Positions 14,308 through 18,992 of a DNA stretch of 64,000 bases are shown here, piece after piece. The notes beneath the pieces were generated by a model. That model did not search any database. It was not told the DNA's origin and was given only the letters and a program-made list of their open reading frames with translations. Each line of letters opens with the position of its first letter. Positions within the stretch are counted from its first letter, which is position 1. The position numbers were made by a program, and so were the translations under genes. The stretch is from Acutalibacteraceae bacterium (lineage in GTDB: Bacteria; Bacillota; Clostridia; Oscillospirales; Acutalibacteraceae). The DNA is taken from contig JBJEQD010000105.1 of NCBI GenBank assembly GCA_051881575.1, positions 4,316 to 68,315 on the forward strand, in the 5' to 3' direction.

Positions 14308-16293
14308 GTGAAAAAAACAACAAAAATGACTATTGCGATACTTCTAACCATCATTATGGTATTCGGTTCGTTTGGTGCTGGAAACTCTAATCTTTTTTTC
14401 AAGTTGTTTGAGATTAAAGCATCCGGAGTGCAAGCAGGTATATTTCTTTGGCCAGTACCTTCTTCTTATTCTCTGTCACAAGGCTATAGTTCTAGCCATA
14501 AAGCAATAGATATTCAGAAGTGCGCAAACCAAAATGTAATTGCATCTTATTCCGGAGTCGTGTATAAACTTGATTCCGGAACAAATAGTTCAAGTTCAAC
14601 AGATAGCTCATACGGAACAAGCATGATTATCAAGCACAATATTAATGGGAGTGTTTACTATACCCACTATGCTCATATGGTTAAAGATTCAATCCCTCAA
14701 AGGCTCCGAACAATTGGCGCAAGTGTAAGCCAAGGTGAAATCATAGGAAAAGTTGGAAATACAGGAAATGTTTCTGGATCTTCTGGATATCATTTGCATT
14801 TTTCTATTGCAGATAGCACAGGCGTATGGAACGGACGATTCAACAACACTCCAACAGATAGTAGGCACAACATAAATAGTTCTAGCGGTGTGTCATACAG
14901 ATACAGTATTGAACATGAGCACGACTTTAGTGTTTATCTGTATTACTGGGCAAAACATCCTCACTACAATGATTATAAATGCAAATACTGCGATGCTAAG
15001 CAGGAAAACAGAAATGAAACAAATTATGTTGCATCATGTGAATTGTGCAATCACACCCATAGTTATACAGCCACTTCGGCATCATCTGCCACATGTGAGT
15101 CAGGCGGATACACGACATATAACTGTTCATGCGGAGACAGTTATACAACATATACAAACGCCTTAGGCCATAACTACAGTATTTTATCATATAATGAAAA
15201 CGCACATCCTCATTATGCAGTTTACAAATGCAGCAGGTGCAGTTCAACAAAAAGGACTTCAGAAACCGGTTATCTGAAATCATGTATAGATTGTATTTTC
15301 AGCGGTAAACCGGTTTTAACAGTTACACCGGGCACAAGCAAAACAGAAACTATTTTATTGTCAAGCGTTGTAAACGGTGCCGAATATTATGAATATAATA
15401 TTAAAACTTACTACGGCGATGAAAAGGTTCTATTCAGATATAGTGATGAAGGAGAGCCGGTATCTGTCATTCTTGATTCAGGCAAATATAAAGCATATGT
15501 AGTAATTTACGATAGATTAGCGTCGTATACATTAAAAAGTGATGAAGTAATATTCACCGTTGATGGCGTCTCCGAAGAAATAAGTACAACGGCATTCCAA
15601 AACGGATATTCAATATACTTCAACGCTAACGGTGGTTATGGCGCACCGTCGTCTCAAAGCGGAAAAACCTCTTATACAATTCCGCCAACTACGCCCACAC
15701 GAAACGGATATTCATTCCTTGGCTGGTCAAAAAACAGTAGTGCTTCATCTGCAAGCTATAAAGGCGGAGACTTCATTTATCTTGAAAACGACACAACGCT
15801 TTATGCTGTTTGGGAAAAAGATGAAATCTCCGAGGAAACGACAACAGCAATCCGAAACGGATATTCAATATACTTTAACGCTAACGGTGGTTCGGGAGCA
15901 CCGTCGGCTCAAAGTGGAAAAACATCTTATACAATTCCGTCAACAACACCAACAAGAAGTGGATATACATTTCTCGGTTGGTCAGAAAACAGTTCAGCAA
16001 TTTCTGCCGGCTACAAACCCGGTGACACAATAGTGCTCTCAACCGATACAACCCTTTATGCGGTTTGGCAAAAAGCAGAAGAGCCCACTACATCACCCAG
16101 TAATACTTGCCCTAACTGCGGAGAAGAATTCACGAGTGAAGAAGAATACAATGAACATATTTCAAACTGTGACTCAAATAACGGCAATAACAACAATTCG
16201 GGTGTTAGTTTATTTGGATTGATATTAGCATTTTTTGCAAGTATTATAAGCTTTATAGGAATGGTTCTAATGTTTCCGCTTCTTCTGTTTTAA
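14308..16293 (+). CDS. Secreted/surface M23 metallopeptidase with His/Cys-rich repeats, two InlB B-type repeats and a C-terminal hydrophobic tail
   Basis: Signal peptide; HKAID, YAHM, HLHF M23 motifs; two YFNANGG...GY.FLGWS...LYAVW repeats; GTG start with SD GAGGAGG; AT-rich relative to flanks. Confidence 0.85.
   Translation: MKKTTKMTIAILLTIIMVFGSFGAGNSNLFFKLFEIKASGVQAGIFLWPVPSSYSLSQGYSSSHKAIDIQKCANQNVIASYSGVVYKLDSGTNSSSSTDSSYGTSMIIKHNINGSVYYTHYAHMVKDSIPQRLRTIGASVSQGEIIGKVGNTGNVSGSSGYHLHFSIADSTGVWNGRFNNTPTDSRHNINSSSGVSYRYSIEHEHDFSVYLYYWAKHPHYNDYKCKYCDAKQENRNETNYVASCELCNHTHSYTATSASSATCESGGYTTYNCSCGDSYTTYTNALGHNYSILSYNENAHPHYAVYKCSRCSSTKRTSETGYLKSCIDCIFSGKPVLTVTPGTSKTETILLSSVVNGAEYYEYNIKTYYGDEKVLFRYSDEGEPVSVILDSGKYKAYVVIYDRLASYTLKSDEVIFTVDGVSEEISTTAFQNGYSIYFNANGGYGAPSSQSGKTSYTIPPTTPTRNGYSFLGWSKNSSASSASYKGGDFIYLENDTTLYAVWEKDEISEETTTAIRNGYSIYFNANGGSGAPSAQSGKTSYTIPSTTPTRSGYTFLGWSENSSAISAGYKPGDTIVLSTDTTLYAVWQKAEEPTTSPSNTCPNCGEEFTSEEEYNEHISNCDSNNGNNNNSGVSLFGLILAFFASIISFIGMVLMFPLLLF
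15568..16074 (+). repeat. Intragenic tandem duplication (about 258-nt period) encoding InlB B-repeats
   Basis: AAACGGATATTCAATATACTT(C/T)AACGCTAACGGTGGTT occurs in both copies. Confidence 0.85.
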
Positions 16294-16399
16294 TAGGTAA
16301 ACTTAGTTTATTTATAACAAATCAAAAAATTTATCTACACTATTCTGAACGTTTTTTGATAACAAAACTTAGCAAACAAGCCACCAATTGTAGCTTACT

Positions 16400-16446
16400 A
16401 CTTGCACCGCCGTGAATACCATTCGGTAAACGGCGGTGCAATTTTT
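16400..16446 (+). terminator. Terminator after the M23 gene
   Basis: TTGCACCGCCGT...ACGGCGGTGCAA stem followed by TTTTT. Confidence 0.7.
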
Positions 16447-16511
16447 AAGGGCTAATCCGTGTGCTCGCCAGCCATTATTTGCATAGAATTGTTGATATAT
16501 AACGATTTTTT

Positions 16512-17018
16512 GTAGGGAACGCCGTCCTCGGCGTTCCGTGGGGTTTGGTGCGTTTCACGGACAACCGCAAGGCTACGGATTGATTTCAATTTGTAGCGGA
16601 CGATGCTCACATCGTCCAAAATGCAGAAATAACGGATTTTTCAGGATTCAAGGTAGGGCGGGGGCTCGCTCCCGCCGTTTTGGATTTATAAAGAATATAT
16701 CATTTATAGAAAAATTTAACAAATTATTCGCCCATGGCGAATTGGTTCGTCGGGGACGCCGAACCCTACGGATTTTACCGTTAGCAGTTCATATTTCCCG
16801 GAACGCTGAGGACAGCGTTCCCTACGAGAAAATCGTACTGATATCAGGCGTTTTCAAGCAAAAACCGTAGGGGACGGGTCGCCTGTCCCGCATAAAAAAC
16901 CGTTTCAACGGATTTTAAAAATTTGTGCTTTTTCAAGCGGGAGAACGCAGTTCTCCCCTACGGTGTTGCCGAGGTTTTTCTGCTGTTTTCCCGGAACGCC
17001 GGGGACGGCGTTCCCTAC
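16512..17018. repeat. Cluster of nine GTAG-type REP hairpins (REPIN/BIME-like)
   Basis: GTAG+hairpin at 16512, 16593, 16653, 16867; hairpin+CTAC ending at 16576, 16769, 16825, 16961, 17018; first and last units are 26-bp inverted copies (1 mismatch). Confidence 0.85.
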
Positions 17019-17068
17019 TGAATTTTGTGCTTTTGGGGATAATATCGTTTATCCGTAAGTTAATCAAT

Positions 17069-17305
17069 CCTCCGTCATTTGCTTCGCAAATGCCACGCTG
17101 ACGGCGCCGTCCCCCTTTGTCTGCTTCGCAGACATTTCCCCCACACTGCGGGGGAATCGACCTTTTCAAAGGAGGCCAACGAAGCAGTAACCTACTGCAT
17201 AGGCTCCTTTGGCAACTCCCTCCGTCACGGCTGCCGCCTCGGTCGGTGCTTCTGAGCTTTCGCTCAGAGGTTGCCACCGGCAACCCGCACCCTCAAGAGG
17301 GAGGC
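17069..17305. repeat. Two tandem CC(C)TCCGTCA...hairpin...GAGGC cruciform repeats, each with an inner hairpin module
   Basis: Shared start CCTCCGTCA (17069, 17219) and end GGAGGC; internal hairpins at 17076-92, 17118-34, 17136-56, 17251-68, 17270-84. Confidence 0.65.
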
Positions 17306-17396
17306 AGATCGCTGCCCGTAGGGCTGAGGATTGGAAAGGACGCTGAATAATCAAGGTTCACGGTCACACAGTTCGTTCCGCTGAAAAGCGAAATGC

Positions 17397-17507
17397 AATT
17401 CGTTCTTTCATATGCCGCAGGCATATTTCATATTTGCGAAGCAAATATTTCACAGCAAAGCTATTTCACTCGTTCCGAAGGAACGAATTTATTGAAAAAG
17501 CACTTCC
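17397..17507. repeat. TTTCA-punctuated array of short triloop hairpins
   Basis: TTTCA-[TATGCC GCA GGCATA]-TTTCA-[TATTTGC GAA GCAAATA]-TTTCA-[AGC AAA GCT]-TTTCA-[TCGTTCC GAA GGAACGA]. Confidence 0.75.
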
Positions 17508-17601
17508 ATTTTTTCTTTGCCCGAAGGGGAATTTACTATGCGGTAATTTCTTCTCGCCCTCTGCTCTTTTTTCTAAATAGTCTTATGTTTTTGTAGGTAT
17601 G

Positions 17602-18519
17602 TTATCTTTCAATAGACCAAAGAATCATATCTATTTTTCTTGGTGTCCAAAAATCTGTATTGAATTTATGATTTAACTCATCAGCTTTTTCTCTCATTAT
17701 TTCTATCAAAATGACACCGTCGCTTTTTTTCAAGGAATTGGGATTCATTTTATGCAGTTCATTGCAATATTTGGAGATATATAATTCTTTAAGTCGTTTT
17801 GCAACAAATTGGTCTATTGTTCCGAATTTTTGAGGAAAAATCACCGCTAATAATCCGCTTGCACCCGCTGCGCCAAGTCCGTGTATCTTGGTTGCCAAAT
17901 CTAAGCATTGTTCAATATCGTTATGATTCATTGTAAATATCTGAATTTGAATTTCGGCAAGTAAAGATAAGTTATCTTCGTCAACATATTTTTTTAATGC
18001 TTTTCTCGTTGTTGCCAAACGATTTTTTTGCGTGTATTTCCATACAAAATATTTGTCGTATAAGAAATCATAAAAATCTGTAACTGATAAAGCTTTTATT
18101 TCGTCTGCATTAAGATTTTCAATATATTTTTCTATTGCAATTTGTTCTTCCTTTAAAATTTCGTAATAATGGTTTAGTGCTCTTTCCCAATCCTCTTTTG
18201 AACCGTTTTCCCATAGAAATTTGAGAGATTTTTCTTCTGTAGCATAGCTTTCAAAATTTTTTATTGTCCTATTATCATTATCAATAAGACTTTGCTTTTT
18301 TTCATAATAACACACTTCGTCTGTATTTAATTGCATTGATACTTCATCAAATTTAATTTCATCTATACCATTATTTTTGGATTCGTTTTTGAAGTTTATA
18401 ATTCTTCCTGCTTTATAGCTTTTATGTAGCTTAACTATCAAAAAAATAACTGCCAAGCCAACAAACGCAATAAGAATATAGCTCCCGATTTCTTCAAAAA
18501 GACTATCAAGAATTGTCAT
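17602..18519 (-). CDS. Hypothetical protein: N-terminal TM helix + C-terminal HhH-GPD-like (DNA glycosylase-like) domain
   Basis: TM segment at residues ~12-30; IHGLGAAGASGLL hairpin motif, GTIDQFV acidic motif and terminal IDMILW; strongly AT-rich; SD GAGGTG. Confidence 0.55.
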   Translation of the reverse strand: MTILDSLFEEIGSYILIAFVGLAVIFLIVKLHKSYKAGRIINFKNESKNNGIDEIKFDEVSMQLNTDEVCYYEKKQSLIDNDNRTIKNFESYATEEKSLKFLWENGSKEDWERALNHYYEILKEEQIAIEKYIENLNADEIKALSVTDFYDFLYDKYFVWKYTQKNRLATTRKALKKYVDEDNLSLLAEIQIQIFTMNHNDIEQCLDLATKIHGLGAAGASGLLAVIFPQKFGTIDQFVAKRLKELYISKYCNELHKMNPNSLKKSDGVILIEIMREKADELNHKFNTDFWTPRKIDMILWSIER

Positions 18520-18667
18520 ATATAATGCACCTCAAAATCTTGCTTTAAATAATTGTATCATAAAAAACAATGTTTGTCTATTTTATAAAAAATAATTTAT
18601 AATTAAGAATTTTCACACAGTATGGATGTTTGAAAATCCTCGAAACATCGGTATTTAAGTAATAAAA

Positions 18668-18743
18668 AATTCGTTTTTCAAATTTGCAAAACAGCTGTTT
18701 CTCTTGTTCTGCAAGGAACGAATTTCATTGAAAAAGCACTTCC
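18668..18743. repeat. Eroded second copy of the TTTCA hairpin array
   Basis: AAGGAACGAATTT(C)ATTGAAAAAGCACTTCC at 18713-18743 matches 17478-17507 with one indel; AATTCGTT start also shared. Confidence 0.75.
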
Positions 18744-18759
18744 GAAGAAGTGCTTTTTC
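18730..18759 (-). terminator. Intrinsic terminator after the tRNA 3' copy
   Basis: GAAAAAGCACTTC-TTCG-GAAGTGCTTTTTC on the minus strand. Confidence 0.75.
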
Positions 18760-18868
18760 TTGGCCCGCCCGAAGGGATTCGATTCGCACGCCTGCGGGCG
18801 TTTGGTCGCTCGCGGTCACAACGCTCCACCGGAGCGTTGCTCTGTGCCGCTCGTCCTTCGAATCCCTT
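18760..18868 (-). repeat. Duplicated tRNA-Arg 3' end with inverted T-arm and 74-bp insert
   Basis: 18760-18782 identical to 18915-18937 (23 bp); AAGGGATTCGA...TCGAATCCCTT inverted arms. Confidence 0.85.
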
Positions 18869-18873
18869 ATCAT

Positions 18874-18915
18874 GCAAAAAACCGACAGGTCAGTCTTCGA
18901 CTGCCCTGCCGGTTT
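18874..18915 (-). terminator. tRNA-Arg terminator
   Basis: AAACCGGCAGG-GCAGTC-GAA-GACTG-A-CCTGTCGG-TTTTTT on the minus strand. Confidence 0.7.
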
Positions 18916-18992
18916 TGGCCCGCCCGAAGGGATTCGAACCCCCGATCTTCAGAATCGGAATCTGCTGCGTTATCCAACTGCGCCACGAGCGG
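18916..18992 (-). tRNA. tRNA-Arg (anticodon CCG)
   Basis: Cloverleaf CCGCTCG...CGGGCGG-G-CCA; anticodon loop TT-CCG-AT; T-loop TTCGAAT; encoded CCA; promoter TTGACT-17-TATATT at 19041-19013. Confidence 0.95.

What the first reader, a model, noticed from the sequence alone, without database searches (positions are those of the whole stretch)
17397..17507. TTTCA-punctuated array of triloop hairpins, likely a single-stranded DNA signal
Seen: four hairpins with unrelated stems, with loops GCA, GAA, AAA and GAA, each separated by exactly (A)TTTCA; an inverted TGAAA/CGAAAT remnant lies just left at 17382-94. Known: GNA triloops form very stable ssDNA mini-hairpins. Inference: conserved linker + variable stem is the pattern expected of iterated nick sites for a HUH-type enzyme, or of a protein-binding array. 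It is not CRISPR, since the 'spacers' are self-complementary and under 20 nt. I recall similar arrays after tRNAs in other Clostridia but cannot verify this here.
Basis: partly seen in the sequence, partly recalled or inferred. Interest (0 to 1): 0.65.

Follow-up and report, generated by a model that had tools for sequence, protein, structure and literature searches.

The report
Truncated Gut-1 hairpin array after tRNA-Arg
The flagged hairpin array is real. It is a truncated, gene-less copy of the already catalogued but unexplained "Gut-1" repeat of gut Clostridia, which normally sits just behind tRNA genes and often in front of a small Avd-like gene.

Summary
In detail: four perfect mini-hairpins (loops GCA, GAA, AAA, GAA on the + strand) are joined by (A)TTTCA(C).

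Window 17420-17495 on the minus strand matches Rfam Gut-1 RNA (RF01706) over the full model, at 53.2 bits against a gathering score of 50.

Sixty-odd related loci show that Gut-1 is only arm 1 of a larger mirrored element. The full unit is a stable-RNA gene end, an intrinsic terminator, arm 1 (four short GC hairpins with GTGAAAT linkers), a centre, then arm 2 (longer hairpins with ATTTCAC linkers).
- 21 of 87 elements lie within 150 nt of a tRNA gene.
- Seven lie within 160 nt of an Avd-like PF05635 gene.
- No transposase or HUH gene recurs nearby.

The window copy keeps arm 1 and its closing inverted repeat but has lost arm 2. A 1.24-kb cassette carrying an orphan 305-aa gene separates it from tRNA-Arg. 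A related contig (L126) has the uninterrupted form.

Most likely it is a multivalent heptamer-display platform for a nucleic-acid-binding protein, with the Avd-like protein as best candidate. Whether it acts as RNA or as folded DNA is unresolved.

The parts
17420..17495 (-). Match to Rfam Gut-1 RNA (RF01706), model positions 1-77 of 77, 53.2 bits (gathering score 50). It covers hairpins 1-3 and the start of hairpin 4 of arm 1.
17470..17486 (.). One of its arms also pairs with the distal closing repeat.
   Evidence: The homologous hairpin is 100% paired in 22 relatives, and 6 of its 7 pairs covary.
17454..17462 (.). Hairpin 2, AGC-AAA-GCT (3 bp). The same AGC-NNN-GCT hairpin occurs at this position in L079, L038 and L126.
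17431..17447 (.). Hairpin 3, TATTTGC-GAA-GCAAATA. It contains the GCGAAGC mini-hairpin core, and an identical hairpin is present in L079, L038 and L023.
17410..17426 (.). Hairpin 4, ATATGCC-GCA-GGCATAT. This is the family-wide conserved GCCTGCGGC hairpin that ends arm 1.
17447..17453 (.). One of the heptamer linkers: ATTTCAC on the +, GTGAAAT on the - strand. The others are at 17463-17469, 17425-17430 and 17405-17410. These columns are invariant in the alignment of 22 relatives.
17397..17405 (.). Distal half of the closing inverted repeat: AATTCGTTC here, pairing with GAACGAATT at 17481-17489. It encloses the array.
   Evidence: The homologous long-range pairing is 96.7% paired in 22 relatives, and 6 of its 11 pairs have changes on both sides.
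17380..17394 (.). Degenerate remnant of the element's centre and arm 2 (minus strand ATTTCGC-TTTTCAGC). Homology to the intact ortholog L126 ends at 17385.
17491..17507 (-). Half of the intrinsic terminator that normally precedes arm 1 (minus strand GGAAGTGC-TTTTTCA-AT). The 5' arm of its stem is deleted.
18668..18757 (-). Second, degenerate copy (copy B): a complete terminator GCACTTC-TTCG-GAAGTGC, then TTTTTCA-ATGAAAT and a decayed arm 1. About 51 nt are duplicated between 18747-18693 and 17507-17457, flanking the 1.24-kb insert.
18916..18992 (-). tRNA-Arg(CCG), the stable-RNA gene behind which the element originally lay. A copy of its 3' end lies at about 18761-18786.
17602..18519 (-). Orphan 305-aa gene in low-GC DNA, inserted between the two element copies. 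No terminator-like site separates its stop codon from the array, so its mRNA probably runs into arm 1.

Best explanation
SHOWN
- Window 17380-17507 is a truncated, gene-less copy of a dispersed structured repeat of gut and rumen Clostridia. Its proximal arm is filed in Rfam as Gut-1 RNA (RF01706).
- The complete unit reads: 3' end of a tRNA or rRNA operon, intrinsic terminator ending in TTTTTCA, arm 1, centre, arm 2. Arm 1 has four short GC-rich hairpins separated by GTGAAAT. Its first hairpin arm is also complementary to the centre. The centre reads GG..ATTT-ATTTCA-TTTCAC. Arm 2 has three or four longer, AT-richer hairpins separated by ATTTCAC.
- In about a tenth of copies an extended -10 promoter and a 115-120-aa Avd-like (PF05635) gene follow arm 2.
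- The window copy keeps arm 1 and the closing repeat and has lost arm 2.
- A 1.24-kb AT-rich cassette carrying an orphan 305-aa gene landed in its first ~50 nt and duplicated them. That cassette now separates the array from tRNA-Arg(CCG).

INFERRED
- The fixed heptamers are held between hairpins whose shape, not sequence, is conserved. Together they form a multivalent binding platform for a sequence-specific nucleic-acid-binding protein.
- The best candidate is the Avd-like four-helix-bundle protein encoded beside complete copies.
- The platform would be read on a folded single strand. That strand could be read-through RNA leaving the upstream terminator (here, the 3' UTR of the 305-aa gene) or extruded DNA.
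- Orphan copies such as this one would be spare or decaying binding sites.

My confidence in the identity and architecture is about 0.9. My confidence in the protein-platform mechanism is about 0.35-0.4.
For: Identity
- The full-length Rfam hit is above the gathering score.
- Twenty related loci give 22 arm-1 hits of 54-81 bits, plus 2 arm-2 hits on the opposite strand.

Architecture
- 24 two-armed elements all have the terminator next to arm 1.
- Linker columns are invariant.
- Hairpin 1 is 100% paired and 6 of its 7 pairs covary. The closing stem is 96.7% paired and 6 of its 11 pairs covary.
- 206 of 306 inter-linker segments form whole-segment stems, against 24 after shuffling.

Context
- 21 of 87 elements lie within 150 nt of a tRNA, and in 20 the tRNA 3' end faces the element.
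- In L089 the element follows 23S-5S-tRNA-tRNA.

Partner
- PF05635 is the commonest Pfam family among 128 flanking ORFs.
- Avd-like ORFs lie 17-157 nt from the element in L012, L034, L050, L070, L072, L088 and L104.
- Six of these seven (all but L104) share one architecture: tRNA, terminator, arm 1, arm 2, promoter, Avd-like gene. In L104 the gene lies upstream, between the tRNA and arm 1.
- Avd-like genes of other clades (L007, L028, L104) carry arrays with other linker words.

Constraint
- The array is 93.6% identical to its ortholog in L126, against 86% for the neighbouring PfkB DNA, while the DNA around it has turned over.

Local history.

Transcription
- In L059 and L107 the element lies between tRNA-Arg and tRNA-His on one strand and ends 11-20 nt before tRNA-His. 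It must therefore be transcribed there.
- No terminator-like site lies between the 305-aa gene and the array.
Against: - No binding experiment exists.
- About 90% of copies, including this one, have no Avd-like gene beside them, and the 64-kb window has none.
- No RNA data could be obtained.
- In complete units the Avd-like promoter lies downstream of the array. The array is therefore not that gene's own 5' UTR.
- Stems are almost purely Watson-Crick: 1288 WC, 15 G-T, 16 A-C.
- Loop type is mirrored between the arms. That fits a DNA-level palindrome at least as well as an RNA.
- The Avd-like gene could be merely the commonest cargo at tRNA-adjacent insertion hotspots.
Confidence: 0.55

Rival explanations
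1. It is a genuine structured RNA, as Rfam files it. It would be made by read-through of the upstream terminator, or here as the 3' UTR of the 305-aa gene. It would act at the RNA level without a dedicated protein, for example as a barrier to exonucleases, a processing spacer in stable-RNA precursors, or a fail-safe stop behind tRNA and rRNA operons.
For: - Weinberg et al. 2010 judged it an RNA on covariation.
- Arm 1 is next to the upstream, co-oriented terminator in 24 of 24 elements.
- The element sits inside a tRNA-Arg to tRNA-His operon in L059 and L107.
- G-T outnumbers A-C about 9 to 4 on the Gut-1 strand of two-armed elements, which is not significant.
- No terminator-like site separates the 305-aa gene from the array.
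Against: - A strong terminator directly precedes almost every copy, and no promoter does.
- Wobble pairs are only about 1% of stem pairs.
- On the Gut-1 strand the arm-1 loops are UNC triloops, which are not known to be stabilising. The stable GNA and GNNA loops lie on the other strand.
- The U-runs after the hairpins are only 3 nt long.
- No RNA reads were available.
Confidence: 0.25
2. It is a selfish, non-autonomous DNA repeat of MITE, REP or BIME type. It would fold as single-stranded or cruciform DNA and be copied or nicked at the TTTCA words by an enzyme encoded elsewhere.
For: - It is a dispersed, multi-copy repeat. Word depth in the source metagenome is 343 over 17413-17469 against 6.8 for the unique gene.
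- Stems are perfect palindromes with G-T about equal to A-C.
- The arms are mirrored, and C(GNA)G loops, hyperstable in DNA, lie on the ATTTCAC strand of each arm.
- It usually lies between a terminator and the next promoter.
- It sits beside true GTAG REPs in the same spacer (unverified note).
- A full element folds as one long imperfect palindrome, z = -5.7 as DNA.
Against: - No transposase, HUH or integrase family is hit by two or more of 128 flanking ORFs.
- No target-site duplication is evident.
- Homologous hairpins differ between genomes by compensatory changes, which indicates selection rather than recent copying.
- The strict polarity towards the upstream terminator is unexplained.
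Confidence: 0.15
3. It is a recombination landing pad, or portable homology, at which integrase-free gene cassettes are captured behind tRNA genes, in the manner of an attC site.
For: - The 305-aa gene is bracketed by a ~51-nt duplication of the terminator and the start of arm 1, and it is absent from ortholog L126.
- Similar brackets surround a 134-aa LRR gene in L079, genes in L041 and an Avd-like gene in L104.
- Relatives L127 and L130 carry other cassettes behind the same tRNA-Arg.
Against: - Ordinary homologous recombination between any dispersed repeats gives the same picture.
- The tRNA 3' end is duplicated too, which points to classical tRNA-targeted integration followed by decay.
- No recombinase is linked to the element.
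- Most copies are solitary.
Confidence: 0.05

Closest known systems
Gut-1 RNA motif (Rfam RF01706; Weinberg et al. 2010, Genome Biol 11:R31, PMC2864571)
   Same: It matches the full-length covariance model above the gathering score. Both have three or four short covarying hairpins separated by (G)UGAAAU, come from gut metagenomes, and follow a terminator. One published seed also follows a tRNA.
   Different: The published motif is only arm 1. It was reported from the human gut only, with no function, no partner and no context. Here the source is a pig-gut MAG, and relatives come from ruminants, deer and Hadza samples. The unit is two-armed and tied to stable-RNA operon ends and Avd-like genes. 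The window copy is truncated.
REP/BIME elements of Enterobacteria and their RAYT transposases
   Same: Both are small extragenic palindromes clustered in alternating orientation behind operon ends. Both are dispersed and conserved in structure, and REP/BIMEs are known to bind proteins (gyrase, IHF; from my own knowledge).
   Different: These hairpins have no GTAG foot and no RAYT is nearby. The conserved part is the linker rather than the stem. The number of units is fixed and arm 1 differs from arm 2.
CsrB/RsmZ-type protein-sponge RNAs
   Same: Both show many copies of one short word displayed around hairpins, which suggests multivalent capture of a single protein.
   Different: In Gut-1 the word lies in the linkers rather than the loops. 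No CsrA-type partner is known, no promoter of its own is present, and transcription is unproven.
Integron attC sites and Vibrio VCR repeats
   Same: Both are imperfect palindromes conserved in structure rather than sequence. Both are found next to promoter-poor single-gene cassettes and were first noticed as dispersed repeats.
   Different: There are no R/L boxes and no IntI gene. Copies are scattered rather than lying in one cassette array, and a heptamer-hairpin sub-structure is present.
d(GCGAAGC)-type GNA mini-hairpins of single-stranded DNA
   Same: C(GAA)G and C(GCA)G triloops closed by C-G dominate on the ATTTCAC strand. Hairpin 3 contains GCGAAGC itself.
   Different: Those are a thermodynamic motif, not a genetic element. 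Their presence here does not show that the DNA is ever single-stranded.

Membership tests
Rfam Gut-1 RNA (RF01706) | Scores at or above the curated gathering score (50 bits) with the family covariance model, full length | tested here: met
   53.2 bits, model positions 1-77 of 77, not truncated, E = 1e-7 over 64 kb. Relatives score 54-81 bits.
Rfam Gut-1 RNA (RF01706) | Three hairpins separated by the conserved (G)UGAAAU word, with stems supported by covariation | tested here: met
   Alignment to the model. Hairpin 1 is 100% paired and 6 of its 7 pairs covary. 206 of 306 segments form whole-segment stems against 24 after shuffling.
Rfam Gut-1 RNA (RF01706) | Expressed and functional as an RNA (filed as Gene; sRNA) | not testable with these tools
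   No RNA run holds this organism. A rumen relative gave only two low-depth contigs within the Avd-like gene and none on the array. Indirect clues point both ways.
REP/BIME with RAYT | Conserved GTAG/CTAC foot on each palindrome and a RAYT (HUH Y1) gene in the system | tested here: not met
   These hairpins have no GTAG foot. No HUH or transposase family is hit by two or more of 128 flanking ORFs.
IS200/IS605-type HUH transposon ends | Sub-terminal hairpins beside a TnpA gene, with a defined cleavage tetra- or pentanucleotide | tested here: not met
   No TnpA-like ORF is next to this copy, and none recurs next to relatives. Cleavage itself is not testable in silico.
CRISPR array | Repeats of 23-50 nt, non-palindromic unique spacers of similar length, and usually cas genes | tested here: not met
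   The repeat is 7 nt, the 'spacers' are 9-19-nt palindromes, and there are at most 4 units per arm.
Integron attC | R''-L''/L'-R' boxes with the GTTRRRY core, and an IntI integrase with attI | tested here: not met
   No such core is present in the sequence, and no integrase recurs among the flanking ORFs.
MITE (non-autonomous transposon) | Terminal inverted repeats flanked by a target-site duplication, with occupied and empty sites among relatives | tested here: inconclusive
   Mirrored arms exist but no target-site duplication was seen. Relatives L127 and L130 lack the array behind the same tRNA-Arg, but their whole spacer differs.
Cis-partner of Avd-like / 23S_rRNA_IVP (PF05635) genes (proposed, not published) | An Avd-like gene directly adjacent to the array | tested here: not met
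   No Avd-like ORF occurs anywhere in the 64-kb window (tblastn). Seven relatives have one within 160 nt of the element, so this copy is an orphan.

The most novel reading that the evidence does not exclude
Gut-1-type arrays and Avd-like (PF05635) proteins would form a previously unrecognised, sequence-coded nucleic-acid-protein system anchored at the ends of tRNA and rRNA operons. Each protein clade would read its own heptamer word displayed between hairpins. The arrays, together with their terminators, would double as portable landing pads where integrase-free single-gene cassettes are captured, such as the 305-aa gene here.
Probability: 0.15. Interest if true: 0.75.

Novelty: new member of a known kind. 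Interest (0 to 1): 0.4.

Why it matters
Gut-1 has been an orphan Rfam motif since 2010, with no organism, context or function attached. This locus places it in an assembled pig-gut genome.

Together with relatives, it shows four things:
- The filed motif is only half of a mirrored element.
- The element sits at the ends of stable-RNA operons.
- It is more conserved than the neighbouring coding DNA.
- It has a recurring candidate partner, the Avd-like four-helix-bundle protein, whose role outside diversity-generating retroelements is also unknown.

That makes both orphans directly testable. For this particular copy the news is modest. It is a truncated, gene-less member, and other windows of this scan have already noted the same family.

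Tried and rejected
- Transcription could not be tested. Only DNA-type runs hold the locus. The two runs of unknown type gave only short repeat contigs or coverage within the Avd-like gene.
- Exact-protein look-ups of the neighbours returned only contigs of 1.4-2.2 kb that break at the repeats.
- The HUH, IS and REP reading is rejected as unsupported. There are no such genes in the flanks and no GTAG foot.
- CRISPR is rejected on unit sizes.
- A phage or plasmid origin is rejected. blastn found nothing in either collection. In viral contigs only 4 of 119 pattern hits are true elements; three of them lie behind tRNAs and probably represent host flank.
- The wobble-pair strand test was inconclusive. 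G-T to A-C is 15:16 pooled and about 9:4 on the Gut-1 strand of two-armed elements.
- A literature search for PF05635 together with arrays found nothing relevant.
- The 305-aa protein has no match in Pfam, PADLOC or the PDB, and only marginal PHROG hits.
- The MAFFT alignment of the middle hairpins was too ragged for pair counts. Only hairpin 1 and the closing stem were counted.

Full report
**Observation.** It holds four hairpins:
- ATATGCC-GCA-GGCATAT (17410-17426)
- TATTTGC-GAA-GCAAATA (17431-17447)
- a weak AGC-AAA-GCT (17454-17462)
- TCGTTCC-GAA-GGAACGA (17470-17486)

Each is separated by (A)TTTCA(C). The inverted remnant GCTGAAAAGCGAAAT lies to the left. I add a 9-bp inverted repeat that encloses the array: AATTCGTTC at 17397-17405 with GAACGAATT at 17481-17489. 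The linker pattern occurs once in the window against 0.04 expected. Both strands fold into the four hairpins, as RNA or DNA, with z-scores of -2.8 to -3.1.

**Identity.** Rfam's covariance-model scan gives one non-tRNA hit in the whole 64 kb. It is Gut-1 RNA (RF01706) at 17420-17495 on the minus strand, model 1-77 of 77, at 53.2 bits against a gathering score of 50, E = 1e-7. The literature holds almost nothing on Gut-1. Weinberg et al. 2010 report 43 representatives, from the human gut only, judged an RNA, not cis-regulatory, with no function. Their seed alignment already shows a downstream inverted array, tandem copies, upstream terminators and one copy behind a tRNA.

**The larger element.** Most are gut and rumen Clostridia MAGs: Oscillospiraceae, Acutalibacteraceae, Faecousia, Ruminococcus and Christensenellaceae. 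In 62 of the 120 the matched segments are perfect hairpins. The same scan of viral contigs gave 8 of 119, of which 4 are true elements.

Twenty-four loci carry a complete two-armed unit. In order it contains:
- an intrinsic terminator ending in TTTTTCA;
- (A)CGAAAT or ATGAAAT;
- hairpin 1 (AAATCCC..GGGATTT or AAATTCGCC..GGCGA);
- three more short GC hairpins, each followed by GTGAAAT, the last being the conserved GCCTGCGGC;
- a centre, GG..ATTT-ATTTCA-TTTCAC;
- three or four longer, AT-richer hairpins separated by ATTTCAC.

Rfam's model hits arm 1 in all 20 loci tested (22 hits, 54-81 bits). In two loci it also hits arm 2 on the opposite strand. The filed Gut-1 motif is therefore arm 1 of a mirrored element. 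The window's score is at the low end of the range.

**Structure statistics.**
- Linker columns are invariant in an alignment of 22 arm-1 copies.
- Hairpin 1 is paired in 100% of cells, and 6 of its 7 pairs change on both sides.
- The same 5' arm also pairs with the centre. That pairing is 96.7% paired over 11 pairs, 6 of them with changes on both sides. Arm 1 therefore has two mutually exclusive closures.
- Of 306 distinct inter-linker segments, 206 form a stem spanning the whole segment, against about 24 after shuffling.
- Stems are almost purely Watson-Crick: 1288 WC, 15 G-T, 16 A-C and 11 other pairs.
- Separated by physical strand in two-armed elements, G-T to A-C is about 9:4 on the Gut-1 strand, which is not significant.
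- Loops are strongly strand-biased. C(TTC)G, C(TGC)G, C(TAC)G and C(TNNC)G occur on the TGAAAT strand of each arm. These read as C(GNA)G and GNNA on the ATTTCAC strand, and this holds in both arms in their own orientation.
- A full element folds on itself as one long imperfect palindrome, with z = -5.2 as RNA and -5.7 as DNA.

**Context.** Of 87 elements, 21 lie within 150 nt of a tRNA gene. In 20 of these the tRNA 3' end faces the element. In all 24 complete units arm 1 is the arm next to the upstream terminator. In L089 the element closes a 23S-5S-tRNA-tRNA operon. In L059 and L107 it lies between tRNA-Arg and tRNA-His on one strand and ends 11-20 nt before tRNA-His. There it must be transcribed.

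Among 128 flanking ORFs the commonest Pfam family is PF05635 (23S_rRNA_IVP, Avd-like), with 5 members. No transposase, HUH or integrase family is hit twice. tblastn finds Avd-like ORFs 17-157 nt from the element in L012, L034, L050, L070, L072, L088 and L104, and none in the window. In six of these seven the order is tRNA, terminator, arm 1, arm 2, TGnTATAAT promoter, Avd-like gene, terminator; in L104 the gene lies between the tRNA and arm 1. Avd-like genes of more distant clades (L007 in Akkermansia, L028, and upstream of L104) are flanked by arrays with other linker words. This independently reproduces leads left by earlier agents of this scan. It does not prove binding.

**Local history.** On the minus strand the order is:
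1. tRNA-Arg(CCG) at 18992-18916 with its own terminator;
2. a split copy of the tRNA 3' end;
3. a complete terminator, GCACTTC-TTCG-GAAGTGC;
4. TTTTTCA-ATGAAAT and a decayed arm 1 (copy B, 18730-18668);
5. a promoter and the 305-aa gene (18519-17602, GC about 0.28);
6. a decayed tRNA-end copy;
7. half a terminator;
8. the intact arm 1.

Metagenome contig L126 (PfkB 97% identical in protein) has the uninterrupted form: tRNA-Arg, a tRNA 3' copy, the terminator, arm 1 and a short arm 2, with no 305-aa gene. BLAST shows that L126 positions 2442-2521 match window 18776-18693, and positions 2471-2595 match window 17507-17385. The window therefore carries a 1.24-kb insertion flanked by a duplication of about 51 nt.

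The array is 93.6% identical between the two lineages, against 86% for the adjacent PfkB DNA. The spacer around it is unalignable. Three of the eight differences are in loops, and the only stem change affects a terminal pair. Other relatives (L127, L130) carry different cassettes behind the same tRNA. In the source metagenome the array segment has a word depth of 343 against 6.8 for the unique gene, as expected of a dispersed repeat.

**Mechanism.**
- *Shown:* a conserved heptamer alternates with hairpins whose shape, not sequence, is maintained. The arms are mirrored. The element sits at stable-RNA operon ends with strict polarity. It recurs next to Avd-like genes.
- *Inferred:* the array is a multivalent platform that presents the heptamer to a sequence-specific protein on a folded single strand. 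The Avd-like protein is the best candidate. DGR Avd proteins are nucleic-acid-binding ring-formers (my own knowledge).

Whether the strand is RNA or DNA is open.
- *For RNA:* the polarity, the placement inside tRNA operons, and the missing terminator after the 305-aa gene.
- *For DNA:* the strong terminator before nearly every copy with no promoter, the Avd-like promoter lying downstream of the array, about 1% wobble pairs, mirrored loop types, and C(GNA)G loops on the strand opposite the Rfam model.

**Limits.** No RNA-seq run was usable.

**Verdict.** This is a real feature and a member of a described but unexplained family. The copy is truncated and has no partner gene. It is of moderate interest, mainly as one more well-resolved data point for a family that now has a testable partner.

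Noticed in passing
window 17457-18747: A 1.24-kb low-GC cassette carrying an orphan 305-aa gene is flanked by a ~51-nt imperfect direct repeat. The repeat comprises the terminator and the start of arm 1. The cassette is absent from the otherwise orthologous contig L126. The gene has no match in Pfam, PADLOC or the PDB, and only marginal PHROG hits. No integrase is nearby.
   Followed up: partly
window 18755-18992: The 3' end of tRNA-Arg(CCG) is repeated about 155 bp downstream (GAATCCCTTCGGGCGGGCCA). A further decayed copy lies at about 17525-17545. This suggests successive insertions at the tRNA end. Relatives L127 and L130 hold different cassettes at the same place.
   Followed up: partly
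window 16293-17380: This is a 1.1-kb ORF-free spacer packed with other GC-rich hairpin repeats, including GTAG-footed REP-like units and CCTCCGTCA...GGAGG units. These are also multi-copy in pig-gut metagenomes, with word depth up to 780.
   Followed up: no
L007:5900-6800 (Akkermansia MAG): An Avd-like gene is bracketed on both sides by hairpin arrays that use a different linker word (GATATAACC / GGTTATATC). The same design therefore occurs in another phylum with another word.
   Followed up: no
L059:5563-5934 and L107:6685-7046: A complete two-armed element lies inside a tRNA cluster, between tRNA-Arg plus a weak terminator and tRNA-His. Only 11-20 nt separate arm 2 from the tRNA-His 5' end, so tRNA-His appears to depend on transcription through the array.
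   Followed up: partly
L079:4295-5182 and L041:205-3123: Near-identical duplicates of terminator plus whole element bracket small genes. In L079 the gene is a 134-aa BspA-type LRR protein. The layout matches that around the 305-aa gene in the window.
   Followed up: no
window 14308-16293: A low-GC gene encodes a 661-aa secreted protein with an M23 peptidase domain and Listeria-Bacteroides (Flg_new) repeats. It converges on the array from the other side.
   Followed up: no
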